NCBI GenBank assembly: GCA_964019335.1
Contig: OZ025700.1
Coordinates: forward strand, 310,001-374,000
From: Diplonema japonicum
Taxonomy: Eukaryota > Protista > Euglenozoa: Diplonemea
Direction of reading: 5' to 3'
Length of the DNA: 64,000 bases
Positions 22,010 through 42,058 of the stretch are shown here, piece after piece. The stretch's first letter is position 1; the number at the start of each line of letters is the position of its first letter. The translations under genes and the position numbers were made by a program. Below the pieces are notes generated by a model. The model made no database searches. It worked only from the letters and a program-made list of their open reading frames with translations, and was not told where the DNA came from.

Positions 22010-22320
22010 CTAGTAGTAGTACGCCCTGGGGCTCACGACAGTGTCGTAGTAGCGCGGAGAGGCCAAGGCGTCGTAGTAACGAGGGGAGGTCGCCGAGGTG
22101 TAGTAAGCATCACGGATGCGCCTCGCAGAGGCATCGGCCTCCACACGAGCTGTCGCTGCAGCCACATCAGCAGCCACACCGTAGGTGGTGCTGTAGGCAG
22201 AGCTGTAGTAAGGTGTGTAAGCAAGGGAAGAGGTGTAGGGGACGGTGGCACGTGCAACAGCAAGGTCGGCCTCAGCACGAGCAACAGCAACATCGACAGA
22301 GGTCGGTGCGACGTAGTAGA

Positions 22321-22324
<4 letters not shown>
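22010..22324 (-). CDS. Tyr/Ala-rich SPR-YY small protein, array copy 1 (104 aa, lacks VSPRV)
   Basis: ATG to TAG ORF conserved across 10 copies while flanks diverge; strong codon bias (TAC, GCC). Confidence 0.85.
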
Positions 22325-22365
<41 letters not shown>

Positions 22366-22600
22366 GAGTTTTTTAAAATGTAAGTGTGGAAAGCTGTAGG
22401 TGTTCTAACATCAAGGAATGGGAAAGAATAGTTAACTGAAACACCCCCTCGGGTGGGCAGAGGGGTGTAGAGTCGTACAAACAAACAAAGTTGCAACAAA
22501 AAGGGAGCCCTCCTAGCTAAAGGAGGGTCCCCCACCGTCGCTGTGTCATGTGGTGTGGGGGGAGGGAGTCGAATTGTTTAAAGGGTGCTACTTTGCACCT

Positions 22601-22636
<36 letters not shown>

Positions 22637-22732
22637 ATCTTTCTTGGTTCGTTTAGTTTAATACAATAAACAACCACACCCTGTTATAAGGTGTTCAGGA
22701 AGTGGTTGTCTGTGAAACTATCCCCCTTGCCT

Positions 22733-23062
22733 TCAGTAGTAGTACGCCCTGGGGCTCACGACAGTGTCGTAGTAGCGCGGAGAGGCCAAGGCGTCGTAGT
22801 AACGAGGGGAGGTCGCCGAGGTGTAGTAAGCATCACGGATGCGCCTCGCAGAGGCATCGGCCTCCACACGAGCCGTTGCTGCAGCCACATCAGCAGCCAC
22901 ACCGTAGGTGGTGCTGTAGGCAGAGCTGTAGTAAGGTGTGTAGGCCAAGGAAGAGGTGTAGGGGACGGTGGCACGTGCAACAGCAAGGTCGGCCTCAGCA
23001 CGAGCAACAGCAACATCAACAGAGGTCACCCTCGGGGACACAGGTGCGACGTAGTAGACCAT
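22733..23062 (-). CDS. Tyr/Ala-rich SPR-YY small protein, copy 2 (109 aa)
   Basis: MVYYVAPVSPR...SPRAYYY-TGA; near-identical to the other copies. Confidence 0.85.
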   Translation of the reverse strand: MVYYVAPVSPRVTSVDVAVARAEADLAVARATVPYTSSLAYTPYYSSAYSTTYGVAADVAAATARVEADASARRIRDAYYTSATSPRYYDALASPRYYDTVVSPRAYYY

Positions 23063-23449
23063 TTTGTGTTTATAAGGTGTTTTAAGTGGAGTTGAAAGCT
23101 GTGGGTGCTGACATGAGAAAATAATGGAAATAAGTAAAATATAAGAAAAGCGGAAACACCCCTCGGGTGGGCAGAGGGGTGAAGAGTCGGTACAAACAAA
23201 CAAAGTTGCAACGAAAAGGAAGTCCTCCTAGCTAAAGGAGGGCCCCCCACCGTCGCTGTGTCATGTGGTGTGGGGGGGGGGGGGGGAGTGAAACTGTTTT
23301 AAGGGTGCTACTTTGCACCTGTTTCTTTTCATCTTTTTTTTATTGTATCTTCTTTGGTTCGCATGTTTGGTTTAATACAAGAATAAACAACCACACCCTG
23401 TTATAAGGTGTTCAGGAAGTGGTTGTCTGTGAAACTATCCCCCTTGCCT

Positions 23450-23779
23450 TCAGTAGTAGTACGCCCTGGGGCTCACGACAGTGTCGTAGTAGCGCGGAGA
23501 GGCCAAGGCATCGTAGTAACGAGGGGAGGTCGCCGAGGTGTAGTAAGCATCACGGATGCGCCTCGCAGAGGCATCGGCCTCCACACGAGCTGTCGCTGCA
23601 GCCACATCAGCAGCCACACCGTAGGTGGTGCTGTAGGCAGAGCTGTAGTAAGGTGTGTAGGCCAAGGAAGTGGTGTAGGGGACGGTGGCACGTGCAACAG
23701 CAAGGTCGGCCTCAGCACGAGCAACAGCAACATCAACAGAGGTCACCCTCGGGGACACAGGTGCGACGTAGTAGACCAT
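23450..23779 (-). CDS. Tyr/Ala-rich SPR-YY small protein, copy 3
   Basis: Same ORF as copy 2 with minor substitutions. Confidence 0.85.
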   Translation of the reverse strand: MVYYVAPVSPRVTSVDVAVARAEADLAVARATVPYTTSLAYTPYYSSAYSTTYGVAADVAAATARVEADASARRIRDAYYTSATSPRYYDALASPRYYDTVVSPRAYYY

Positions 23780-25261
23780 TTTATTTATATTATTTGGAGT
23801 GAAAAAAGAAGCTGTGTGGAAAACTGTGAATATATCCAAGTAAGAAAAAGTATTCAATATGAAAAAAAAAAGAAAAAAACTTAAAGTACAGGACAAGCCC
23901 CCCGCTAGAGGGCCGCCCTATGGGAGGGGGGGGGGGGTCTAAAATCTTGGCCCTATTTGGCATGTTGGATTTCACTCACAGGTTTTGGCATGTTGAAAAT
24001 TTTCGCTGTTAGTCCGGGTTTCGTCGCCGTAGGCCTTGGGCCTACGACAACGAACCCTTGTATTTCCCGCCCGCGGCCTGCGGCCGCGGTGCCACGACCG
24101 TTCCTCGGCCTTCGGCCTCGGAACCCACTGCCCTGACGCGGCCTTCGGCCGCGTTGCCCGTTAAAAGAAGTAATGCAGTGACTATTCACTATGAAAAACA
24201 AACTACTGACTTGTTGAGCGCTCCAAAAATCTCTTTTGTGAAAGGTACAAAAGCCTTTGGTATGCGTTCTTTTTCTTTCAATCGATTGTTATATGTACTT
24301 ATAAAATATTGCGCGCATTAGACGACACTGATTAAGCGACTGGCACCTTCCGAAGAAGGGCCTCCCATGTCCGCCGTGTTGAGCAGAGGATGCCCCGGGG
24401 CGGGCGTTCCAGTCTGATCATGTCGCACTATAATATATTTCTCATCTTCTAGAAGAAAATGAAGTTTTTGCCCTCGAAGAGCGCCGGGCCAGCACTCTTA
24501 CTTGCGTAAGGTGTTCTTCGGATGGCGCTGCCTGACGTTGTGCCATTGCAGCGTCGAGAAGAACAGCCAGTCAGTCGCCATGGAGTAGTGATCCTTTAAG
24601 GCTCTCCTATCTCCATGCCGCGTGTACTGTTGCCGTCTCTCGACGTCCCCCTTCGCCTTCCAGCCTTCCAAGTCAAACTGGCCATGAACCACGTGTTCCA
24701 ATGCCTCAAGTTCCACACCTTTTCTCCTGCAAAGCCACACACTTCTTGTAACACCCTTGTTTACTAGTGCCCTTAATTCCGTATGAAGAAAGGATCTTTG
24801 TATTATTATCATTTGGTCGATATATCATGAGTTTTAATTATAAACTTTCTTTGGCATGATTGCTTCCTTAACACGGTTATTGCATGGTTGTACTCATTAA
24901 AGACTAGTTTTCATTTGTGAGTAGTGCAGTGTTCCCTCTCAATGTTGCTGTTTCTTTTTTTTTTTTGTTTTCGTCGGATCAGCTACCTTGGAACGTCCAC
25001 ATACTTCCGCTATTCTATTCCATTTTAGAGGAGATGCACTCTTCTAGCAAGCTAGTGTAGATCACATTAGTGCTTCAAGGATTATCTGACGTTACCTGGT
25101 GCGGCTCTTCACAGGTCCCCACCCACTTCGCTATGGTTTCCTAATCGATTTCTCTTTTTTTCTTTTTTCACTCACTGAGGGCCTCATTATTTCCTCCGGC
25201 GACGACGGACGCAGCAGCAAACCCAGGCAGAGGTGGCAGGCACCTGCAGAACACGAACGAC

Positions 25262-25300
25262 CAATAAAGTACAGAAACTGTAGCTTTAGAATCATTGGTC
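25262..25300 (-). ncRNA. Spliced-leader (mini-exon) sequence, diplonemid type; probably the 5' end of a retroposed trans-spliced RNA rather than a functional SL RNA gene
   Basis: Minus strand reads GACCAATGATTCTAAAGCTACAGTTTCTGTACTTTATTG. The 3' CAGTTTCTGTACTTTATTG is the conserved kinetoplastid/diplonemid SL core. Followed by GTCGTT rather than GTATG; no Sm site seen. Confidence 0.88.
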
Positions 25301-25492
25301 TTACTTTTTCTTTTTCTTTTAGCCCGACCACTCACGTAACAGTCCGAGAAGGCCTCTCTTCGCGCCTCAGCTATGTCCGGGAACACCACATCAGCAACAC
25401 TCTTTGGCTGGGTTGCAGGTATTTTAAAAGAATTGGTTTTTGTGATATAATGATGGGAAAAGAGCTGTAAGAAATGTGGTGAGAATATGTTG

Positions 25493-25788
25493 TTGAGCAT
25501 TAATGAAACTAAGGGGGCCCAATTGGGCACTTCCGGGACTAAGGGGTACTTTGAGCATTTATGAAACTAAGGGGACCGAATTCGAGATCTAAAAACTTAC
25601 GGGTCAAGTATGAGGTTCTTTTTGAAGACTTGGGGTACTACGCAGAGATTTAGGAAACCTTGGGGACAGGACCAGAAACCCTTCCTTCCTTAAAGATAGA
25701 CCTTGAACATTGCTCAAACTAAGGGGGAAACTAAGGGGGTGGATTTTGAGCATTTCTCCGAACTTTGGGTCAAGTCAGCAGTTTTCTC
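25493..25788. repeat. Mutator-like long TIR arm with ~30-bp-periodic AACTAAGGGG motif
   Basis: Motif variants at about 25507, 25538, 25565, 25594, 25627, 25656, 25717, 25729 and 25761, ending in ...cagttttctc. Partner arm not found. Confidence 0.5.
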
Positions 25789-27528
25789 TTTTTTTTTTCC
25801 CACAAGGGAGGGATCTACAACCACCCCTCGCAATTCCGTTCGCTTCCGCTCCTGTGGCAAAGCACAGGCGGACCCAAAGAATGAAAAGATGAAGAAAACA
25901 GTCGTTAACGCGCCAAAAACCTTGCACGCTCTGCAGGCCCTGGAGAGGCCCTCATTTCCCTTAAGAAAAAAAATGGGCTTGACAAAAATCTTGGAACGAT
26001 TTGGCATGTTGAATTTTCTCTTAGGAAACTCACGGCCCTGGAGAGCGTTGCAAGCTGCAAGGTACAAAAACATCGCGCATCATGGCTATTTCCGTTTCAT
26101 GCTTACTGTTCCGCGTAGCCGAGTATCCTGCTATTTTCGCTGCCTGGTTGACTCAGGACTCGTTCCACGGGTGCACGATGACAACAACAAGAACATGCGG
26201 GAGGAACACATAAACTACAGGAGGCTCCTCTGGAGGATGTCAGTCACCTTTATTGACACTTCCCTCTTCACCCGTTTTTCAGTTTTCTCGCTCTTATCCC
26301 TACGTGCAGTAACATTTCTGCCACCTGGGAAGAACACTTCCGCAGGTGTTGAGAGTATCTCGATCATCCCACGCCAGCTCCTGTCAACACCACGCGTCAC
26401 CACCTGCAGCCTCTCTACGGCTATCTACCACTGTTCTATTCCCACGTAAACAAGAACCCGTCTGTCATCACTGAATAGGCTTTATCATACGAGATGGAAC
26501 CTGTTTCTGCAGAATTCATCTTGTCCGCCACGTTTATTATTTTCACTGTGTTGTCCGACATCTCACTGAAGGCGTAGTCACCCTCACTCACGAGTACTGC
26601 CCCACTGAACTAATGGAGCCCTCTTGACGAGCTCTTGACCCGCGACGGCAGCCACAGCGAACAGCAACATTTTAGTTTGACAGAAGAGGAGGCGGGGAGG
26701 GGATCAATAAACCTATTTTAACTTTTAAAGAGGTCAAGAGTTGATTTATCAACTGGAACCAATAGTGCACGACGGTGCTTGGGGACATTCCTTAGTCGCT
26801 GGGGACATGAAGAAGATATTCCTGCTCGTTCTTGTTACTCCCTGCTTCCTTTGGAGTCCTTGTAGTGTCCAGAGACACAGGTACAAGATGTGTGCAGCAG
26901 AGCAGGACGGTTACGACACGCGTGAAGGGAGTGTACTATCTAATCTACAGTGACGGAAATGTTGCGGAGGCTGACTGCGATACATCTTTCTCCCAAGCAC
27001 CGGGAATACCACCTGTTGGTCATGGAGACTGTGACCACGGCAGCTACTAAGGTGTGGTGGAGGATATGCAGCGATTTCTGAACTTCAATCAGGAGGCCCC
27101 TCCAACGATCCTCAACGAAGGTATTGCAATACACGCCTCAAGAGGTCTTTGTTTGTTAGACAATGTGCCAAAGAGTTGAAAGCGAAATTAAAGCAAAAGA
27201 AAAAATAAAATAAAAATAAAAGTATAAGAAAAGCGGAAACATCCCCTCGGGTGGGCAGAGGGGTGAAGAGTCGGTACAAACAAACAAAGTTGCAACGAAA
27301 AGGAAGTCCTCCTAGCTAAAGGAGGGTCCCCCACCGTCGCTGTGTCATGTGGTGTGGGGGGAGGGAGTGAAACTGTTTTAAGGGTGCTACTTTGCACCTG
27401 TTTCTTTTCATCTTTTTTTTATTGTATCTTCTTTGGTTCGCATGTTTGGTTTAATACAAGAATAAACAACCACACCCTGTTATAAGGTGTTCAGGAAGTG
27501 GTTGTCTGTGAAACTATCCCCCTTGCCT

Positions 27529-27858
27529 TCAGTAGTAGTACGCCCTGGGGCTCACGACAGTGTCGTAGTAGCGCGGAGAGGCCAAGGCGTCGTAGTAACG
27601 AGGGGAGGTCGCCGAGGTGTAGTAAGCATCACGGATGCGCCTCGCAGAGGCATCGGCCTCCACACGAGCCGTCGCTGCAGCCACATCAGCAGCCACACTG
27701 TAGGTGGTGCTGTAGGCAGAGCTGTAGTAAGGTGTGTAGGCCAAGGAAGTGGTGTAGGGGACGGTGGCACGTGCAACAGCAAGGTCGGCCTCAGCACGAG
27801 CAACAGCAACATCAACAGAGGTCACCCTCGGGGACACAGGTGCGACGTAGTAGACCAT
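27529..27858 (-). CDS. Tyr/Ala-rich SPR-YY small protein, copy 4
   Basis: Same ORF; G->S variant (TTYSVAAD). Confidence 0.85.
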   Translation of the reverse strand: MVYYVAPVSPRVTSVDVAVARAEADLAVARATVPYTTSLAYTPYYSSAYSTTYSVAADVAAATARVEADASARRIRDAYYTSATSPRYYDALASPRYYDTVVSPRAYYY

Positions 27859-28252
27859 TTTGTGTTTATAAGGTGTTTTAAGTGGAGTTGAAAGCTGTGG
27901 GTGTGCTGACATGAGAAGAACATGAAATAATAGAAATAAGTAAAAATTAAACTAAAAGCGGAAACACCCCTCGGGTGGGCAGAGGGGTGAAGAGTCGGTA
28001 CAAACAAACAAAGTTGCAACGAAAAGGAAGTCCTCCTAGCTAAAGGAGGGCCCCCATCCGTCGCTATGTCATGTGGTGTGGGGGAGGGAGGCGAATTGTT
28101 TAAAGGGTGCCACGTTGCACTTGTTTCTTTTTTTTTTTTAAATATTTTTTTTTTTGTTTCTTCGCATGTTTGGTTTAATACAAGAATAAACAACCACACC
28201 CTGTTATAAGGTGTTCAGGAAGTGGTTGTCTGTGAAACTATCCCCCTTGCCT

Positions 28253-28582
28253 TCAGTAGTAGTACGCCCTGGGGCTCACGACAGTGTCGTAGTAGCGCGG
28301 AGAGGCCAAGGCATCGTAGTAACGAGGGGAGGTCGCCGAGGTGTAGTAAGCATCACGGATGCGCCTCGCAGAGGCATCGGCCTCCACACGAGCTGTCGCT
28401 GCAGCCACATCAGCAGCCACACCGTAGGTGGTGCTGTAGGCAGAGCTGTAGTAAGGTGTGTAGGCCAAGGAAGTGGTGTAGGGGACGGTGGCACGTGCAA
28501 CAGCAAGGTCGGCCTCAGCACGAGCAACAGCAACATCAACAGAGGTCACCCTCGGGGACACAGGTGCGACGTAGTAGACCAT
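28253..28582 (-). CDS. Tyr/Ala-rich SPR-YY small protein, copy 5
   Basis: Same ORF, 109 aa. Confidence 0.85.
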   Translation of the reverse strand: MVYYVAPVSPRVTSVDVAVARAEADLAVARATVPYTTSLAYTPYYSSAYSTTYGVAADVAAATARVEADASARRIRDAYYTSATSPRYYDALASPRYYDTVVSPRAYYY

Positions 28583-29726
28583 TTTATTTTTGGAGTGAAA
28601 AGGGAAGGGTGTGTGGAAAACTGTGAATAAATGTCTTCAAGTTGCAAAGGCTGAATCGACGACAGCTCTTTCTCCCAAGCACCGGGAATACCACCTGTTG
28701 GTCATGGAGACTGTGACCACGGCAGCTACTAAGGTGTGGTGAGGGCATCGGGTTTAAGAACGTATGTAAAAACAAAAGAATAGAAAAAAAAACAATCAGA
28801 AAAAACCCCTCGGGTGGAGGGATAAAGCATCGGTACACACGAACAATGGTGCAACAAGAGGGAAGTCCTCCCAAAGAAGGCTCCCACCGTCGCTTGTCAT
28901 GTGGCGTGGGGGAGAAGGGGGGGAAAAAAAAATTACGAGAATTTAAAAAAAAGAAAAATTGAAATAAAGGGAGAAAGAGAGGGAAATAAAAACACGACAT
29001 TCGTTTCTTTTTTATAAAATACCGACCCTCCCACTTTTGTTCTCAATTAAGAAGTGGCAAAAGTTCTTTTTTTTTTTTTTTTTGCTGGATCTCTATAACC
29101 ATCCTTAAGTAGGAGGCTTCCCATAAAGGGGCACGTGGCTACGAGAAAATGAGGGTGGGCTAAAAGAAAAGAAAGAGAAAGTCGCAAAATGTGAGAGGGA
29201 GAAAAAAGAAGCTTTTGCTTGAGTGTGCAAGGGGCGGCACCGACACAAAAAGCAGGCATATGAGATTAGTTTTTTCTTCTTCTTCCTTCCTTTCCCCCCT
29301 CTTATCAAAGAAAGAAGTACAAAACAACCTCATAAAAGAAATCAGGGGAAAGGGGGGGGGGGTTATATTTTCAGGTTTGTGTTTCTGGAAGAAAAAGAAA
29401 ACAAAAAAAAAAAAGAAACATTAGGGAATTGGAGAAGCCGGCGATCGATGTGCAATTCCATGACACGGGTCATGTAAGTTTGCTGTCACCAAAATAAAAA
29501 AAATAAAAAACCTTTTATTTTTTTATATTTTCTCTCCCTGGTTCTTTTTTGTTTCCTTTCCCTCCCCTTTTTCAGTTTTTTTTTTTTTTTTTAAACAATG
29601 TGTTAACATAAGAAAGGATCTTCGGAAGTCCAGCCAACCCCCGACACAAGACATTTTGCGCGATAGGTCACAAAAAGGGAGGGGGAGAGGGAGTGGGGAG
29701 AAGTCAAACAAAGCTACCTTTCTTTT

Positions 29727-31433
29727 CTAGTTGCTGATTTTTTTGCACTCAGGTGCGTACCAGCACCTCCTCAGGCACCTGGCCCACCACCTGCTCTGCT
29801 GGTAGCACGCAAGCCCTGCCTCACAGCAGTTCGGGTTCTGCATGCACCCACCCCACATTCCGATCCTGCGTGCGCACTGGTTGTCAGCTGTGGGCACGGG
29901 AGTGGAAGCATCAGTCGGCATAGGGGTAGGCATAGGAGTGGGTGCAGGTGTCTTGCCAGCAGTGGGCATGGGAGTAGGCATAGGAGTAGGCATGGGTGTA
30001 GGCTCAGGAGTAGCATCAGGCTCGTTTGCAGGCTGAGGAGTGGGCATAGGCGTCGGCATAGGAGTGGGCATGGGTGTAGGCATAGGAGTGGGCATGGGAG
30101 TAGCATCAGGCTCGTTTGCAGGCTGAGGAGTGGGCATAGGAGTGGGCATGGGAGTAGGCATAGGGGTAGGCATAGGGGTGGGCATGGGAGTAGGCATAGG
30201 GGTGGGCATGGGTGTAGGCATGGGAGTAGAAGGAGGGTTGGGGTTACTGCCACTACTGCAGCCCCTTGTCTGGCTGACTGTGCGACCCACTGTCTGCGAC
30301 CAGTCACCGTTGGTGTCGTGGAGAGCGACCCAAAAGAAAGCCCCCCCGTTGCAAGGGTACTCTTTGTTCAGGTCGTTCATTACGCTGACAGCCTGCTGCG
30401 CGTTGCTGTTGGAGCCGGTGCCTGAGCAGTCGCTGATGCAGAACCCAAACACCACCTTCGTAGGGTCGTTCCCGAAGCAGTCCGTCACAAGGGTTTTGAA
30501 GTGCTGCAGGGCGGACTCGTGCACTCCCCCGTTGATCCCATCTGTGTTGGGGCGCGTCACCCCGTTGTAGTACTGCGGCATGAGGAAGTCCATGGAGCTT
30601 GCCACTTCCTTGATGACGTTGTAGTAGCCGGTCCCCTTCTTCATGTCGATGTCCATAGGGGCGTGCGAGACTTCCTTCCCGGAGGGGAGGCTCTGCCTCA
30701 GCCCGACTGTCACGTCCTTAAGGAACTTCTGAGCCTGGGCACCCTTAGCGAAGGAGGACCCCCTCTGACCGTTCTCGTAGTAGTACTCGTAGTCGATGTC
30801 CACCCCGTCGAAGCCCTGGCTCCTGGAGATGTCGACAAGCTGCTGGATGACGTAGTCCTCCTTCCCGTAGCAGTACTCCCAGCAGTCGTTGAGGCCGTCC
30901 CAAGAGCCACCCATGCCCGCTCCGCCGAATGACAGGATAACCTTTTTACCAGCAGCACGCCACTTGGAGATGAGGCCAGGGTTTGGCGCGTTGTTGCAGA
31001 CAGGGACAGGGGTGCTGATCTTGCACTGTTGGTTGCACTGGTTCTTGCCGGGTGCCCAAGTGTAGGTCACAGCGAAGGAAACGAGGATGTGGGTGTAGGC
31101 GTTCACCTGGGCGTCTGTGGGGCAGGCTTGCCAGTTCCCGACATACGCAATGAGCCTGCTGTCGTGCTCTGCCTTTGCACTAGGACCAGGAGGGGGTGTC
31201 GGGGGGTTGGGGGTCGGCTCCGGTGCGGGGACAGTCCCTCCCATACTCGGGCACCATGTTGCTCCATTTGCCGCACATGCACCTGCACTGCCGCCACCTG
31301 GGTAACACGGCTCTGCCCACCCTGATTTATAACAGGGTTCCCCTCTATTGATGCACCTTTGACAATCGGCCGTCGACTGCCCTGACGCAGCACCTACGAG
31401 CATTGCGAGTCCTAAAATCTTCATTGCCGTCAT
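29727..31433 (-). CDS. Secreted GH18 chitinase: signal peptide, Cys-rich N-module, GH18, (PTPM)n linker, C-terminal CBM1-like module
   Basis: [15 protein letters not shown] signal; KVILSFGG; catalytic FDGVDIDYE (DxxDxDxE); PQYYN; GAFFW; WGGC...[18 protein letters not shown]. Confidence 0.92.
29915..30230 (-). repeat. Coding 12-nt tandem repeat (PTPM)n with duplicated PQPANEPDA insert
   Basis: ggcatgggagta/ggcataggggtg units within the chitinase linker. Confidence 0.9.
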
Positions 31434-31655
31434 CTTTTAAAAATCTGTGGTGTTGAGGTTTGTCTACAGTGGTTGAAAGAAAAAACAAAAACAAAAAAAG
31501 ATAAGTAGGGAGACGAATAGCATAAGAGTGCTTTGCACCTGGTCTTTATATCTTCTTTGGTTCGCATGTTTGGCCTAATACAAATAAAAACAACAACCAC
31601 ACCCTGTTATAAGGTGTTCAGGAAGTGGTTGTCTGTGAAACTATCCCCCTTGCCT

Positions 31656-31997
31656 TCAGTAGTAGTACGCCCTGGGGCTCACGACAGTGTCGTAGTAGCG
31701 CGGAGAGGCCAAGGCGTCGTAGTAGCGAGGGGAGGTCGCCGAGGTGTAGTAAGCATCACGGATGCGCCTCGCAGAGGCATCAGCCTCCACACGAGCCGTC
31801 GCTGCAGCCACGCTGTATGAGGGGCTGTACGCGGAGCTGTAGGCAGAACCGTAGGTCGAGCTGTAGTAAGGTGTGTAAGCAAGGGAAGAGGTGTAGGGGA
31901 CGGTGGCACGTGCAACAGCAAGGTCGGCCTCAGCACGAGCAACAGCAACATCAACAGAGGTCACCCTCGGGGACACAGGTGCGACGTAGTAGACCAT
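31656..31997 (-). CDS. Tyr/Ala-rich SPR-YY small protein, copy 6 (113 aa, variant central segment)
   Basis: Central YSSTYGSAYSSAYSPSYSV replaces YSSAYSTTYGVAADV; frame preserved. Confidence 0.85.
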   Translation of the reverse strand: MVYYVAPVSPRVTSVDVAVARAEADLAVARATVPYTSSLAYTPYYSSTYGSAYSSAYSPSYSVAAATARVEADASARRIRDAYYTSATSPRYYDALASPRYYDTVVSPRAYYY

Positions 31998-32426
31998 TTT
32001 ATGTTTATAAGTGGAAAACTGCGCAAAAAAGTGACGAAATGAGCGACATCGAAAATATGAATGGGAAAGCAGAGTGAGAAAATAAGGTACCAAAGCAACA
32101 TTTGTGCTCACCTTCATGTAGATTGGAAGCCTACTCTCTTACACGTCGGCCTTCCTTACTACATAGCTCTTCTGGAATCTTAGGAACTCACAGGAAGAAA
32201 AAGGGGGGAAGAAGGCCATCCAGTTAAAAAAAAAAAAAAGAATCGATTCTAAGAAACGTACCAAATAATGTTGGATCATGCGAACCTTTTCTTGACCGGA
32301 AACCAAGGGGGGAGATCTAAAATGGTACAGGGGCGGGTTTTCAACCTCATTAGAAATTCCCCTCGTCCTTTTTATTTTCTTTTTTTTCTTTTTTTTATTT
32401 TTATTTTTTCTATTGAAGCACGTAAC

Positions 32427-33557
32427 CTAGGCAGTTGCCATCAGCTGGAAGATGTCATCGACTTGACCGAAGCCGATTTTGAGAAGGAAGGTTGGGTCTC
32501 TTGCGTAGGCTTTGCCACCAGCCACGAAGAAGGAGGGCTCGGGGGTATTCAAGGTGGCCGCCCCACCTGAGACCTGCTGGAGGCAGTCTGCAGTGGCAGA
32601 CCCCCCACGGCTGGTCAAAAGGTACGCGGAAAGAGCCATGGGCCCCTCGGACCCGTAGCAGATGTGGTTGCGCAGCTCACGTGTAATTGACAGGTCAGGC
32701 TGGAAGCCGACCAGCGAGAAGAGCACGTCGTACTCCAGCGTGAAGGGGCCTTCCTTGCCTTCGAACACAACGGTGTCGGCGTGCACCTCTGTGAGAGACC
32801 CGACCCTCCTCTCCACCCCGTTGGCGAAGGAGGCCAGGTCGTTCCTCTGCGGCAGGGGGTCGTTGTCGATCAGCGTGAAGGGCGCCTTCTCCTTCCTGGT
32901 CACCCACACCACACTCTTCATCTCCCCGTACTTCTGCGTCAACATGAACTTCATCAGCGTGGCTGCGCTGTACCCCGCACCTATAACGACAGCCCGCTTA
33001 CCCGACAGGTCTGTCCCGTCGCGGGGGATCTCGCTCTGCACGCGCCCCAGTTTCCTTTGCTTCTTTTCCCCAATGGCGGGGATGCCACCTGTCCCAGGCG
33101 ACTTGAAGTTGCCGTAGCACCCCGAGGCGTCGATGAGCGTGTCGAAGGGTGTGAAGACCTGCTCCTCGCCGTCGACCTCTGCCAGCACGCGGAAGGGTGC
33201 CCCCTTGCGGTCCGTGTCGGACTTCAGAAGCCCCGCGCGCCCCACGTTCGTCACTGTGCAGTTCTTCACGATTCGAACGCCCTTCGCCACAAGGTGCGCT
33301 TCCACCTTCTCAAGGACAGCCGTGCGGTACTCCCCTCCTGTGGGGAACACCTCGTCGTCGACCACCACCACACGCCTCATCCGCTCCGAGAGGTTCAGCT
33401 TGTTCTTGCTGAATAGTTGCACGTCGCCCCACCTCCGCAGGTTCTCCCCCACAACGCTGCCCTTCTCCAACACAGTCACCTCCATCCCTTCCTCTACACC
33501 CTTCAGTGCCGCGTCCAGACCCACAGGCCCCCCGCCAATGATGCATAATTTCGTCAT
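32427..33557 (-). CDS. Bacterial-type FAD/NAD(P)-dependent oxidoreductase (flavoprotein monooxygenase-like)
   Basis: Two Rossmann motifs IIGGGPVG and VIGAGYSA; WGDVQLFS; IDASG; C-terminal PEPSFFVAGGKAYARDPTFLLKIGFGQV; intronless, high GC3. Confidence 0.85.
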   Translation of the reverse strand: MTKLCIIGGGPVGLDAALKGVEEGMEVTVLEKGSVVGENLRRWGDVQLFSKNKLNLSERMRRVVVVDDEVFPTGGEYRTAVLEKVEAHLVAKGVRIVKNCTVTNVGRAGLLKSDTDRKGAPFRVLAEVDGEEQVFTPFDTLIDASGCYGNFKSPGTGGIPAIGEKKQRKLGRVQSEIPRDGTDLSGKRAVVIGAGYSAATLMKFMLTQKYGEMKSVVWVTRKEKAPFTLIDNDPLPQRNDLASFANGVERRVGSLTEVHADTVVFEGKEGPFTLEYDVLFSLVGFQPDLSITRELRNHICYGSEGPMALSAYLLTSRGGSATADCLQQVSGGAATLNTPEPSFFVAGGKAYARDPTFLLKIGFGQVDDIFQLMATA

Positions 33558-33900
33558 CTTTCGTTGCCTCGGTCTCTCTGTGCGGGTGAGTCGTGGGCAG
33601 AATATGTGAGTTGACTAAAATAAAAGAAAAAGAAGAAGGAAAATCGGGCCATTGCGGCACCAAAAAAAAGCGACTTGAGAGGAAGGGAAAATGAGTGTAT
33701 GGTAAATACTCGTGGGGGGCTACGAGGGGGGATACAAACAAAGATTATAATTTTTTGTAGGCCTTCGAAAAGAGGGGCGCCCATGCTTCAGTAAAAAAGC
33801 TTTACCTCTGTGTTATAGGACCACAGAGGCAGGGACGGCTCTTTCGTGCACTGTGTGTGGGTGTCTTGTTATTGCACAACTTATAATTAATTTCCTCAAC

Positions 33901-34230
33901 TTAGTAGTAGTACGCCCTGGGGCTCACGACAGTGTCGTAGTAGCGCGGAGAGGCCAAGGCGTCGTAGTAACGAGGGGAGGTCGCCGAGGTGTAGTAAGCA
34001 TCACGGATGCGCCTCGCAGAGGCATCGGCCTCGGCACGGGCTGTCGCTGCAGCCACGCTGTATGAGGGGCTGTAGGTGGAGCTGTAGGCAGAGCTGTAGT
34101 AAGGTGTGTAGGCCAAGGAAGAGGTGTAGGGGACGGTGGCACGTGCAACAGCAAGGTCGGCCTCAGCACGAGCAACAGCAACATCAACAGAGGTCACCCT
34201 CGGGGACACAGGTGCGACGTAGTAGACCAT
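33901..34230 (-). CDS. Tyr/Ala-rich SPR-YY small protein, copy 7 (variant central segment, TAA stop, unique 3' flank)
   Basis: YSSTYSPSYSVAAATARAEAD variant, 109 aa. Confidence 0.85.
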   Translation of the reverse strand: MVYYVAPVSPRVTSVDVAVARAEADLAVARATVPYTSSLAYTPYYSSAYSSTYSPSYSVAAATARAEADASARRIRDAYYTSATSPRYYDALASPRYYDTVVSPRAYYY

Positions 34231-34611
34231 TTTGTGTTTATAAGGTGTTTTAAGTGGAGCTGAAAGCTGTGGGTGCTGACATGAGAAAATAATGGAAATA
34301 AGTAAAATATAAGAAAAGCGGAAACACCCCTCGGGTGGGCAGAGGGGTGAAGAGTCGGTACAAACAAACAAAGTTGCAACGAAAAGGAAGTCCTCCTAGC
34401 TAAAGGAGGGCCCCCCACCGTCGCTGTGTCATGTGGTGTGGGGGGAGGGAGTGAAACTGTTTTAAGGGTGCTACTTTGCACCTGTTTCTTTTCATCTTTT
34501 TTTTTTGTATCTTCTTTGGTTCGCATGTTTGGTTTAATACAAGAAACAACAACCACACCCTGTTATAAGGTGTTCAGGAAGTGGTTGTCTGTGAAACTAT
34601 CCCCCTTGCCT

Positions 34612-34941
34612 TCAGTAGTAGTACGCCCTGGGGCTCACGACAGTGTCGTAGTAGCGCGGAGAGGCCAAGGCGTCGTAGTAGCGAGGGGAGGTCGCCGAGG
34701 TGTAGTAAGCATCACGGATGCGCCTCGCAGAGGCATCGGCCTCCACACGAGCTGTCGCTGCAGCCACATCAGCAGCCACACCGTAGGTGGTGCTGTAGGC
34801 AGAGCTGTAGTAAGGTGTGTAGGCCAAGGAAGTGGTGTAGGGGACGGTGGCACGTGCAACAGCAAGGTCGGCCTCAGCACGAGCAACAGCAACATCAACA
34901 GAGGTCACCCTCGGGGACACAGGTGCGACGTAGTAGACCAT
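34612..34941 (-). CDS. Tyr/Ala-rich SPR-YY small protein, copy 8
   Basis: Same ORF; 5' flank matches that of copy 5. Confidence 0.85.
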   Translation of the reverse strand: MVYYVAPVSPRVTSVDVAVARAEADLAVARATVPYTTSLAYTPYYSSAYSTTYGVAADVAAATARVEADASARRIRDAYYTSATSPRYYDALASPRYYDTVVSPRAYYY

Positions 34942-35569
34942 TTTATTTTTGGAGTGAAAAGGGAAGGGTGTGTGGAAAACTGTGAATAAATGTCTTCAAG
35001 TTGCAAAGGCTGAATCGACGACAGCTCTTTCTCCCAAGCACCGGGAATACCACCTGTTGGTCATGGAGACTGTGACCACGGCAGCTACTAAGGTGTGGTG
35101 GAGGATATGCAGCGATTTCTGAACTTCAATCAGGAGGCCCCTCCAACGATCCTCAACGAAGGTATTGCAATACACGCCTCAAGAGGTCTTTGTTTGTTAG
35201 ACAATGTGCCAAAGAGTTGAAAGCGAAATTAAAGCAAAAGAAAAAATAAAATAAAAATAAAAGTATAAGAAAAGCGGAAACATCCCCTCGGGTGGGCAGA
35301 GGGGTGAAGAGTCGGTACAAACAAACAAAGTTGCAACGAAAAGGAAGTCCTCCTAGCTAAAGGAGGGTCCCCCACCGTCGCTGTGTCATGTGGTGTGGGG
35401 GGAGGGAGTGAAACTGTTTTAAGGGTGCTACTTTGCACCTGTTTCTTTTCATCTTTTTTTTATTGTATCTTCTTTGGTTCGCATGTTTGGTTTAATACAA
35501 GAATAAACAACCACACCCTGTTATAAGGTGTTCAGGAAGTGGTTGTCTGTGAAACTATCCCCCTTGCCT

Positions 35570-35899
35570 TCAGTAGTAGTACGCCCTGGGGCTCACGACA
35601 GTGTCGTAGTAGCGCGGAGAGGCCAAGGCGTCGTAGTAACGAGGGGAGGTCGCCGAGGTGTAGTAAGCATCACGGATGCGCCTCGCAGAGGCATCGGCCT
35701 CCACACGAGCCGTCGCTGCAGCCACATCAGCAGCCACACTGTAGGTGGTGCTGTAGGCAGAGCTGTAGTAAGGTGTGTAGGCCAAGGAAGTGGTGTAGGG
35801 GACGGTGGCACGTGCAACAGCAAGGTCGGCCTCAGCACGAGCAACAGCAACATCAACAGAGGTCACCCTCGGGGACACAGGTGCGACGTAGTAGACCAT
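35570..35899 (-). CDS. Tyr/Ala-rich SPR-YY small protein, copy 9
   Basis: Protein identical to copy 4, 8041 nt away, with matching flanks. Confidence 0.85.
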   Translation of the reverse strand: MVYYVAPVSPRVTSVDVAVARAEADLAVARATVPYTTSLAYTPYYSSAYSTTYSVAADVAAATARVEADASARRIRDAYYTSATSPRYYDALASPRYYDTVVSPRAYYY

Positions 35900-36293
35900 T
35901 TTGTGTTTATAAGGTGTTTTAAGTGGAGTTGAAAGCTGTGGGTGTGCTGACATGAGAAGAACATGAAATAATAGAAATAAGTAAAAATTAAACTAAAAGC
36001 GGAAACACCCCTCGGGTGGGCAGAGGGGTGAAGAGTCGGTACAAACAAACAAAGTTGCAACGAAAAGGAAGTCCTCCTAGCTAAAGGAGGGCCCCCATCC
36101 GTCGCTATGTCATGTGGTGTGGGGGAGGGAGGCGAATTGTTTAAAGGGTGCCACGTTGCACTTGTTTCTTTTTTTTTTTTAAATATTTTTTTTTTTGTTT
36201 CTTCGCATGTTTGGTTTAATACAAGAATAAACAACCACACCCTGTTATAAGGTGTTCAGGAAGTGGTTGTCTGTGAAACTATCCCCCTTGCCT

Positions 36294-36623
36294 TCAGTAG
36301 TAGTACGCCCTGGGGCTCACGACAGTGTCGTAGTAGCGCGGAGAGGCCAAGGCGTCGTAGTAACGAGGGGAGGTCGCCGAGGTGTAGTAAGCATCACGGA
36401 TGCGCCTCGCAGAGGCATCGGCCTCCACACGAGCTGTCGCTGCAGCCACATCAGCAGCCACACTGTAGGTGGTGCTGTAGGCAGAGCTGTAGTAAGGTGT
36501 GTAGGCCAAGGAAGAGGTGTAGGGGACGGTGGCACGTGCAACAGCAAGGTCGGCCTCAGCACGAGCAACAGCAACATCAACAGAGGTCACCCTCGGGGAC
36601 ACAGGTGCGACGTAGTAGACCAT
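36294..36623 (-). CDS. Tyr/Ala-rich SPR-YY small protein, copy 10
   Basis: Same ORF, unique 5' flank. Confidence 0.85.
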   Translation of the reverse strand: MVYYVAPVSPRVTSVDVAVARAEADLAVARATVPYTSSLAYTPYYSSAYSTTYSVAADVAAATARVEADASARRIRDAYYTSATSPRYYDALASPRYYDTVVSPRAYYY

Positions 36624-40997: not shown

Positions 40998-41429
40998 CTA
41001 CTGGGAGTCCTCCTCAACACGGAGCTTGGCGGCACCGTTCACGACCTTGATGTCAAGCTCCTTGGCACGGTTCACGATGGCGGCGCGGGTCTTCTTACCA
41101 ACAGCGGATCCGATGACGGCGGCGTGGGTGGTGTTGCGCATCAGGAGAAGCTCCAAGTCCTGTGGAATGAGTTTTTATTTTTTATTTTAAACCCATCGAC
41201 ATACCTTCTCGCAGTTGATGTTGAAGTGCTTGAGCCCGTCAGGGTGCACGTTACGGGTGGACTTGGCGTTACCGTAACCGATGTTGGCCATCTTGATCTG
41301 ACCCCTCCACTTCCTCCTCACGACGGAGTCAATACCTTTAGGCCTCCTCCAGGACTCACCAACCCTGCAGTGCCTGTCAGAGTGGTGCCTCTTGAACTTG
41401 TTAACCTTCTTCTTGACAATGTGGACCAT
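40998..41429 (-). CDS. RPL32: 60S ribosomal protein L32, copy A, 2 exons, 128 aa
   Basis: [16 protein letters not shown]...[13 protein letters not shown]...NIGYG; intron 41160-41204; exon 2 DLELLLM...[14 protein letters not shown]. Confidence 0.95.
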
Positions 41430-41626: not shown

Positions 41627-42058
41627 TTACTGGGAGTCCTCCTCAACACGGAGCTTGGCGGCACCGTTCACGACCTTGATGTCAAGCTCCTTGGCACGGT
41701 TCACGATGGCGGCGCGGGTCTTCTTACCAACAGCGGACCCGATGACGGCGGCGTGGGTGGTGTTGCGCATCAGGAGAAGCTCCAAGTCCTGTGGAATGAG
41801 TTTTTATTTTTTATTTTAAACCCATCGACATACCTTCTCGCAGTTGATGTTGAAGTGCTTGAGCCCGTCAGGGTGCACGTTACGGGTGGACTTGGCGTTA
41901 CCGTAACCGATGTTGGCCATCTTGATCTGACCCCTCCACTTCCTCCTCACGACGGAGTCAATACCTTTAGGCCTCCTCCAGGACTCACCAACCCTGCAGT
42001 GCCTGTCAGAGTGGTGCCTCTTGAACTTGTTAACCTTCTTCTTGACAATGTGGACCAT
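41627..42058 (-). CDS. RPL32: 60S ribosomal protein L32, copy B, 2 exons
   Basis: Duplicate 629 nt from copy A; intron 41789-41833. Confidence 0.95.

What the first reader, a model, noticed from the sequence alone, without database searches (positions are those of the whole stretch)
22010..36623. Ten-copy array of an unknown Lys-free, Tyr/Ala-rich microprotein with SPR-YY repeats
Seen: ten intact 104-113 aa ORFs. The 109-aa form has 17 Tyr and no K, C, W, F, H, N or Q. It carries two helical repeats (VDVAVARAEAD / VAAATARVEAD), four SPR sites, a YYY C-terminus and no signal peptide. All indels keep frame, and all three stop codons are used among copies, so the protein is what is conserved. 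Inference: a very abundant structural protein (cortex, extrusome or cyst), possibly dityrosine-crosslinked or phase-separating and controlled by proline-directed phosphorylation. I recognise no family.
Basis: partly seen in the sequence, partly recalled or inferred. Interest (0 to 1): 0.8.

Follow-up and report, generated by a model that had tools for sequence, protein, structure and literature searches.

The report
Amplified orphan tyrosine-rich diplonemid microprotein
A marine flagellate carries ten near-identical copies of a small gene that is transcribed, spliced-leader-capped and under selection as protein, yet has no relative in the databases searched; its 12-kDa tyrosine/alanine-rich product is likely an abundant cytoplasmic structural protein, possibly of the cell cortex.

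Summary
Observation confirmed, with small corrections. Ten intact minus-strand ORFs (104, 8 x 109, 113 aa; 7 distinct proteins) lie in four clusters, broken by a 3.3-kb insert, a chitinase gene and an oxidoreductase gene. The gene is real: contigs of 3 runs from 3 studies join a spliced-leader end to the AG acceptor 38 nt upstream of copy 5's ATG. Differences among copies are mostly silent (11 synonymous to 3 replacement outside a variable spacer, p 7e-5). Coding sequences stay 87-100% alike even where the flanks are unrelated, the concerted-evolution pattern of trypanosomatid dosage arrays. The three stop codons simply follow three 3' flank types. No relative was found in Pfam, NCBIfam, PDB, 1.84 billion representatives or three DNA collections. 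The protein has no hydrophobic signal stretch, so cyst wall, extrusome cargo and dityrosine cross-linking are unlikely. It fails the epiplastin criteria, but its SPRYYDA-x-ASPRYY motif recurs in what is likely the head exon of one IMCp epiplastin from a metagenome contig. Best reading (0.4): an abundant cytosolic scaffold protein that self-associates through Ala-heptad helices and Tyr clusters. Real, undescribed orphan family; function inferred only.

The parts
22010..22324 (-). Copy 1, 104 aa, TAG stop, 15-nt in-frame deletion removing the first SPR; unrelated 3' flank
22733..23062 (-). Copy 2, 109 aa, TGA
23450..23779 (-). Copy 3, 109 aa, TGA; CDS identical to copy 5
23850..26960 (.). Insert of about 3 kb between copies 3 and 4; no Pfam match; likely mobile-element remnants; holds an SL-exon-like relic at 25262-25299 (-)
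27529..27858 (-). Copy 4, 109 aa, TGA; CDS identical to copy 9
27958..28098 (-). Conserved GC-rich hairpin segment of the shared spacer / distal 3' UTR; repeated after copies 2, 3, 4, 5, 8, 9, 10 and, at about 75% identity, at 28795-28925; folding z -2.7, almost no covariation
28253..28582 (-). Copy 5, 109 aa, TGA; the copy on which runs were laid
28583..28622 (-). 38-nt 5' UTR (28620-28583) and AG trans-splice acceptor (28622-28621) of copy 5; SL 3' end joined here in runs X21, X1, X2. Copy 8 has the same 5' flank, so the junction may come from either
29727..31433 (-). GH18 chitinase-family gene with PMPT linker, sitting inside the array (context)
31656..31997 (-). Copy 6, 113 aa, TGA; 12-nt in-frame insertion and variant SAYS/SPSYS spacer
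32427..33557 (-). FAD-dependent pyridine-nucleotide oxidoreductase gene inside the array (context)
33901..34230 (-). Copy 7, 109 aa, TAA; variant spacer; unrelated 3' flank
34612..34941 (-). Copy 8, 109 aa, TGA
35570..35899 (-). Copy 9, 109 aa, TGA
36294..36623 (-). Copy 10, 109 aa, TGA; first copy in the direction of transcription

Best explanation
This is a ten-copy array of a trans-spliced, selectively constrained orphan gene of a euglenozoan flagellate (likely a diplonemid), probably amplified for dosage, whose 12-kDa product is likely an abundant cytosolic structural protein that would self-associate at the cell cortex or microtubule skeleton. Shown: intact ORFs, SL joined at an AG 38 nt upstream, synonymous excess, coding sequences homogenised across unrelated flanks. 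Predicted at low confidence: two Ala-rich helices (residues 14-32 and about 50-83) separated and followed by disordered Tyr/Ser/Thr segments; helix 1 has a clean heptad (V12, V15, V19, A22, L26, A29, V33). Inferred: copies pack through the helices into dimers or filaments, and paired tyrosines and arginines of the SPRYY repeats add multivalent contacts. Phosphorylation of the four S-P serines would loosen the assembly, for example at division. The lack of Lys would make it a poor ubiquitination target and long-lived. Three 3' flank types would give different mRNA stability or stage control.
For: ORFs and composition. SL junction at 28621 in X21 and in X1 and X2: 3 of 8 runs laid, three studies; the letters match the euglenozoan SL core quoted in PMC7859406. 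pN/pS 0.13 outside the spacer and 0.33 with it; 11:3 segregating sites, p 7e-5. The two open antisense frames show the reverse pattern (0:8 and 1:7). All 17 Tyr codons of copy 5 are TAC. CDS identity is 0.87-1.00 while the 3' flanks of copies 1 and 7 are at background, about 0.5, as in trypanosomatid dosage arrays (PMC1855330, PMC1533823 abstracts). Summed contig depth in X21 is about 1600-fold higher on the CDS than on a flank 800 nt away; the tool warns this is a poor measure of expression. No hydrophobic stretch. Helices in both AlphaFold runs; heptad. Lead: of 11 in-frame motif matches (10 of the 68 loci), the best match to the tail is L048 (ASPRYYDA-ASPRYYE). That contig also encodes an IMCp domain (27.5 bits, cut-off 21.1) and is the only 1 of 68 with an epiplastin-like window; a GTAAGT...CAG phase-0 intron would join the two frames; the motif is kept in a second protein, P0004.
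Against: No localisation, protein abundance or phosphosite data exist for it. The models are poor (mean pLDDT 60.9 and 51.5; pTM 0.26 and 0.23). The protein fails every epiplastin composition criterion, and SPRYY/PRYY occurs in none of the 13 supplement files of the epiplastin survey. The L048 link is one locus picked by a pattern built from the query; its score (70) is only 10 above the next (60); its organism is unknown and the intron is my inference. The low-depth contig of run X4 has 4 replacement changes among 7 coding differences. No ortholog was found in other diplonemids, although a core cytoskeletal protein might be expected to be conserved.
Confidence: 0.4

Rival explanations
1. A soluble or condensate-forming disordered protein (Tyr/Arg sticker type) acting in stress protection, storage or RNA granules, not attached to the cortex.
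For: 16% Tyr, 9% Arg, and disordered ends in both models; near-neutral charge, pI 7.9; high dosage suits a bulk protectant. Tyr as a condensate sticker: PMC5704491 and PMC12677899 (search listing and abstract start only).
Against: Almost no Gly and no Gln or Asn, unlike FUS-type prion-like domains (recalled); 22% Ala with a heptad helix; no RNA-binding motif.
Confidence: 0.27
2. Extrusome, cyst-wall or adhesive protein hardened by dityrosine or DOPA cross-links, exported without a classical signal peptide.
For: Seven YY or YYY clusters and a YYY end; a GH18 chitinase-family gene sits in the array; some Diplonema species have tubular extrusomes in the swimming stage (PMC8061765 passages).
Against: No hydrophobic signal stretch; no Cys or Lys; the chitinase splits a repeat unit's spacer and looks like an insertion, not a partner.
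Confidence: 0.12
3. A young, lineage-restricted gene whose copy number comes from unequal crossing-over, with a minor function; or the unit is kept partly for the conserved structured spacer RNA.
For: No ortholog beyond near-identical strains; a recent 99.3% duplication; the spacer element survives at 75% identity away from a CDS and folds at z -1.9 to -2.7.
Against: Synonymous excess and frame-keeping indels, including a 9-nt deletion in X1 and X2; copies 1, 6 and 7 lack the spacer element yet keep the CDS; no Rfam match; only 1 of 37 pairs has a two-sided change.
Confidence: 0.13
4. The helical part descends from the alpha-hairpin of a bacterial RND periplasmic adaptor (AcrA/HlyD type) by gene transfer.
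For: The only PDB sequence rows are AcrA (E 2.5-4), colinear over residues 14-86; the only tblastn-confirmed prokaryote locus is an RND adaptor sharing 13 of 14 residues with helix 1.
Against: Those E-values are not significant; L069 is 1 of 367 pattern-selected stretches; no NCBIfam or Pfam match for the query; against 5 other adaptor loci the score was reached by 10-295 of 300 window shuffles.
Confidence: 0.03
5. The copy number is inflated by assembly (haplotypes or repeats placed twice).
For: One 1.63-kb block is 99.3% identical to another; two pairs of CDS are identical.
Against: 8 distinct CDS with several flank types; in DNA-like runs single contigs over the CDS are 31-38 times (X19), 18-23 times (X20) and 5-15 times (X23) deeper than unique flank contigs. 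The tool says this is no copy number, but it points to more copies, not fewer.
Confidence: 0.05

Closest known systems
Trypanosomatid tandem gene arrays under concerted evolution (T. brucei arrays, PMC1855330; Leishmania beta-tubulin, PMC1533823; abstracts read)
   Same: Same-strand duplicates, SL trans-splicing, coding sequences homogenised while flanks diverge, dosage as the likely purpose.
   Different: The amplified gene is a 109-aa orphan, not a known housekeeping or surface protein, and the host is likely a free-living diplonemid.
Epiplastins (articulins, alveolins/IMCp, epiplasmins; PMC6212826, sections 7, 27, 30, passages and supplements searched)
   Same: Low complexity, no hydrophobic signal stretch, multi-gene; a shared SPRYYDA-x-ASPRYY motif with what is likely the head exon of one IMCp protein (L048); Paramecium epiplasmins are also Tyr-rich (14%).
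   Different: No acid-base-dyad domain (1 dyad), V+I 14% against 33%, Ala 22% against 1%, predicted helical, no VPV, no IMCp match.
KMP-11 (PMC13615690, parts 1-3 of 6 read)
   Same: About 10-kDa euglenozoan protein, four homologs in D. papillatum, on cytoskeletal structures: a model for what a small multi-copy scaffold protein can be.
   Different: No sequence relationship shown (no Pfam match); KMP-11 is highly conserved across the phylum, whereas this protein has no detected ortholog.
Tyr/Arg sticker low-complexity proteins (FUS-like) and Tyr-rich cuticle or adhesive proteins (recalled; listings)
   Same: Many Tyr in short repeats within disordered segments.
   Different: Ala-heptad helices, almost no Gly, no Gln or Asn, no RNA-binding domain, no signal stretch.

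Membership tests
Euglenozoan tandem dosage array | Same-strand head-to-tail duplicates | tested here: met
   10 of 10 on the minus strand; six spacings of 711-958 nt
Euglenozoan tandem dosage array | mRNA made by SL trans-splicing at an AG acceptor | tested here: met
   SL end joined at 28621 in X21, X1, X2; tested for the 5' flank shared by copies 5 and 8 only
Euglenozoan tandem dosage array | Coding sequences homogenised while flanks diverge | tested here: met
   CDS 0.87-1.00; 3' flanks of copies 1 and 7 about 0.5; no formal gene-conversion test was run
Euglenozoan tandem dosage array | Very high expression | tested here: inconclusive
   Summed contig depth about 1600 times the flank in X21; contigs cannot rank genes
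Epiplastin (Goodenough 2018) | Medial domain of acid-base dyads separated by short strings | tested here: not met
   One dyad (RD) in 109 aa
Epiplastin (Goodenough 2018) | V+I about 33%, charged about 35%, near-exclusion of A and G, low S and T | tested here: not met
   V+I 14%, charged 17%, A 22%, S+T 20% (criteria)
Epiplastin (Goodenough 2018) | Beta-strand or coil, no alpha-helix in the medial domain | tested here: inconclusive
   Models are helical but of low confidence
Epiplastin (Goodenough 2018) | Located in an epiplast | not testable with these tools
   Needs localisation
Secreted cyst-wall or extrusome protein | N-terminal hydrophobic signal peptide | tested here: not met
   Best 19-residue hydropathy mean 0.99; hydropathy only, no predictor run
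Secreted cyst-wall or extrusome protein | Dityrosine or DOPA cross-links | not testable with these tools
   Needs biochemistry
RND periplasmic adaptor (MFP) alpha-hairpin | Sequence similarity to the family beyond composition | tested here: not met
   No NCBIfam or Pfam match; shuffle control not passed for 5 of 5 other loci, best 10 of 300
Proline-directed kinase substrate | S/T-P motifs in disordered segments | tested here: met
   Four SPR in 9 of 10 copies, three in copy 1; the basic residue is at +2, not the +3 of the recalled CDK consensus
Proline-directed kinase substrate | Phosphorylation in vivo | not testable with these tools
   Needs phosphoproteomics

The most novel reading that the evidence does not exclude
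One of the most abundant proteins of this diplonemid is an unannotated, free-standing SPRYY module, the counterpart of an epiplastin head domain, that polymerises through Ala heptads and Tyr pairs into a phospho-switchable sub-membrane skeleton. It would be a new kind of cortical scaffold underlying diplonemid metaboly, missed because the gene is absent from predicted proteomes.
Probability: 0.15. Interest if true: 0.75.

Novelty: new variant of a known kind. Interest (0 to 1): 0.42.

Why it matters
[quoted passage not shown] A gene kept in ten or more homogenised copies and trans-spliced is a good candidate for a major cell component. It appears to be an annotation blind spot: a neighbouring HisRS is in EukProt, but none of the 7 distinct proteins is in the 15-billion-sequence collection, so proteomics against predicted proteomes would miss it. 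The array arrangement itself is ordinary for Euglenozoa, and the function remains inferred.

Tried and rejected
Protein homology: word-index search, near lengths, 0 of 174 candidates at E<=0.01; longer lengths with alignment A1, 0 of 7994 at E<=10; shorter lengths not searched. phmmer on 1.84 billion representatives gave 1 hit, P0002, a 53-aa tandem-repeat ORF whose score is summed from 25%-identity pieces; rejected. Calibration: 30 of 30 in-silico 50%-identical variants would pass E<=1e-3, but only 2 of 30 at 40%, so distant or unannotated orthologs are not excluded. Pfam 0, NCBIfam 0, PDB phmmer 0, ESM Atlas no usable hit (the sub-region search did not run). DNA collections: 0 relatives from 596 metagenome stretches, 0 from 31 viral, 1 from 367 prokaryote stretches, an RND adaptor, rejected (my extraction recovered a candidate ORF for only 5 of 9 loci and I did not verify their identity). 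Fold searches: Foldseek no match at E<=0.001; VIA-align best Z 5.0, generic long helices. A homodimer prediction could not be run because the queue was full, so self-association is untested. Antisense ORFs are open in two frames but rejected by the substitution pattern. Rfam: 4 chance rows, none in the array unit; no tRNA. No whole genome is held, so copies elsewhere were not counted. Of 24 runs listed I laid 8; X5 gave no contig; the 16 unlaid runs are not used. The pooled count 15:5 leaves out sites already segregating in the window and two X4-only replacement changes from a contig of depth 4; with them it is 15:7. The spacer mask was chosen after seeing the alignment, so both masked and unmasked values are given. 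Literature: eight searches listed no paper on such a protein; 'SPRYY' occurs in 11 papers, none on protists by title; supplements of PMC10161547 (7 files) and PMC12697944 (4 files) had no motif hit, but may hold no sequences. Look-ups of earlier findings by sequence, words and relatives were empty.
Full report
Observation. A script found 10 ORFs beginning MVYYVAP, all on the minus strand, at the coordinates given. They are 104, 109 (eight) and 113 aa and lack C, F, H, K, N, Q and W. They encode 7 distinct proteins from 8 distinct CDS. Copy 1 has three SPR motifs and the others four. The copies form four clusters (1-3, 4-5, 6, 7-10), separated by an insert of about 3 kb, a GH18 chitinase-family gene and an FAD oxidoreductase gene. 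A 1.63-kb block holding copies 4-5 is 99.3% identical to the block holding copies 9-10.

Host. The neighbouring HisRS is held by EukProt. All six neighbours scanned have Pfam matches and lie on the same strand as the array. Transcript contigs carry a leader matching the euglenozoan SL core quoted in PMC7859406 (passage). An earlier unreviewed note calls this genome Diplonema. So a euglenozoan is shown, and a diplonemid is likely.

It is a real gene. Of 8 runs laid, three (X21, X1, X2; three studies) have a contig whose loose end at 28621 is the reverse complement of the SL 3' end, exactly at the AG 38 nt upstream of the ATG. These runs are not on record as RNA; the junction itself shows processed mRNA. 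Outside a variable Ser/Tyr spacer, segregating sites are 11 synonymous to 3 replacement (p 7e-5; pN/pS 0.13, or 0.33 with the spacer). The two open antisense frames show 0:8 and 1:7. X1 and X2 add an in-frame 9-nt deletion and mostly silent changes; X4, one contig of depth 4, has 4 replacements in 7; X5 gave nothing. Copies are not independent lineages, so the p-value is indicative only.

Array dynamics. CDS identity is 0.87-1.00, yet the 3' flanks of copies 1 and 7 are unrelated to the rest (about 0.5) and 5' flanks fall to 0.33. Homology ends at the stop codon, which is why three different stops occur. This is the pattern described for trypanosomatid arrays: dosage with concerted evolution and divergent flanks (PMC1855330, PMC1533823; abstracts). 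In DNA-like runs, CDS contigs are 5 to 38 times deeper than unique flank contigs, and in X21 the summed depth is about 1600 times the flank. The tool states that these depths are neither copy number nor a good expression measure. I take them only as hints that copies are not over-assembled and that the mRNA is abundant.

No family. Pfam, NCBIfam, PDB, ESM Atlas, two word-index searches, a full phmmer scan of 1.84 billion representatives and three DNA collections gave no relative. By calibration the scan sees 50% identity but not 40%. None of the 7 distinct proteins is in the collection, so unannotated orthologs could also be missing. A resemblance to the alpha-hairpin of RND adaptors appeared twice but failed family scans and a shuffle control; it reflects a shared Ala-rich heptad.

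Anatomy. 11.9 kDa, pI 7.9, no hydrophobic stretch. Both low-confidence models give a helix at 14-32, a long helix ending at 83 and disordered linker and tail. Helix 1 has V12, V15, V19, A22, L26, A29, V33 at heptad a/d positions. Fold searches return only generic helices. The tail has three SPR repeats, two followed by YY and the last by AYYY. A homodimer prediction could not be run.

A lead towards the cortex. A degenerate scan for two spaced PRYY/SPRYY motifs gave 68 metagenome loci, 10 in frame. The best match to the tail, L048 (ASPRYYDAASPRYYE; also YVPVSPYV against YVAPVSPRV), lies upstream of an IMCp epiplastin domain (27.5 bits, cut-off 21.1). It is the only 1 of 68 loci with an epiplastin-like window, and a 130-nt GTAAGT...CAG phase-0 intron would join the frames. 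A second protein keeps the motif, with similarity falling away soon after the putative donor. Against this: it is one locus of unknown organism, selected by the motif, scoring 70 against 60 for the next; the motif is absent from the epiplastin survey's supplements; and the query fails the epiplastin criteria. It may work like an epiplastin head; it is not an epiplastin.

Mechanism. Shown: amplification, trans-splicing, selection on the protein. Inferred: a cytosolic, long-lived, abundant protein that self-associates through Ala-heptad helices and Tyr/Arg repeats at the cortex or microtubule skeleton and is loosened by S-P phosphorylation (0.40). Rivals: soluble condensate, stress or storage protein (0.27); young gene of minor function or spacer-RNA payload (0.13); secreted cross-linked protein (0.12); assembly inflation (0.05); adaptor-derived (0.03).

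Verdict. A real, undescribed (in the searches named under Tried and rejected) orphan family in an ordinary euglenozoan array. It is worth tagging and adding to proteomic databases, but it is not yet surprising in mechanism. Papers seen: PMC10161547 (passages, supplement search), PMC6212826 (outline, passages, sections 7, 27, 30, supplement searches), PMC13615690 (parts 1-3 of 6), PMC12697944 (word search, supplement search), PMC7859406 and PMC8061765 (passages), PMC1855330 and PMC1533823 (abstracts). The CDK consensus, secretory-pathway logic and FUS-type composition are recalled.

Noticed in passing
window 25262-25299 (-): SL-exon-like stretch inside the insert between copies 3 and 4, followed by GT but without a T-run about 75 nt later; likely an SL-headed retroposed relic rather than an SL RNA gene.
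   Followed up: partly
window 23990-24170 and 25493-25790: GC-rich inverted-repeat run and degenerate 28-nt repeats in the insert; likely mobile-element remnants; no Pfam match above cut-off for 7 ORFs tested.
   Followed up: partly
window 27958-28098 (-) and 28795-28925 (-): Conserved spacer element folding into a long hairpin plus a short one (z -2.7); a 75%-identical relic lies downstream of the chitinase gene, suggesting the chitinase was inserted into a repeat unit's spacer. No Rfam match.
   Followed up: partly
window 29727-31433 (-): GH18 gene with a signal-like N-terminus, a PMPT tandem linker and a Cys-rich C-terminal module (weak Toxin_12 knottin-like match below cut-off).
   Followed up: no
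window 41187-41429 and 41816-42058 (-): Two identical first-exon ORFs of what looks like ribosomal protein L32 (name recalled), a second small tandem duplication.
   Followed up: no
L048 502-1621 (+): Intron-containing gene of an unidentified GC-rich eukaryote encoding an IMCp epiplastin with an SPRYYDAASPRYY head; public gene calls (P0003, P0004) appear to read through the intron and miss the IMCp domain.
   Followed up: partly
window 28350 and 28373: Variants present in runs X20 and X21 (28350 also in X23) but in none of the ten window copies, pointing to further copies or strain alleles.
   Followed up: no
window 28263: One X23 contig has a poly-T loose end placed just after the stop codon, a possible very short 3' UTR or internal priming.
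   Followed up: no
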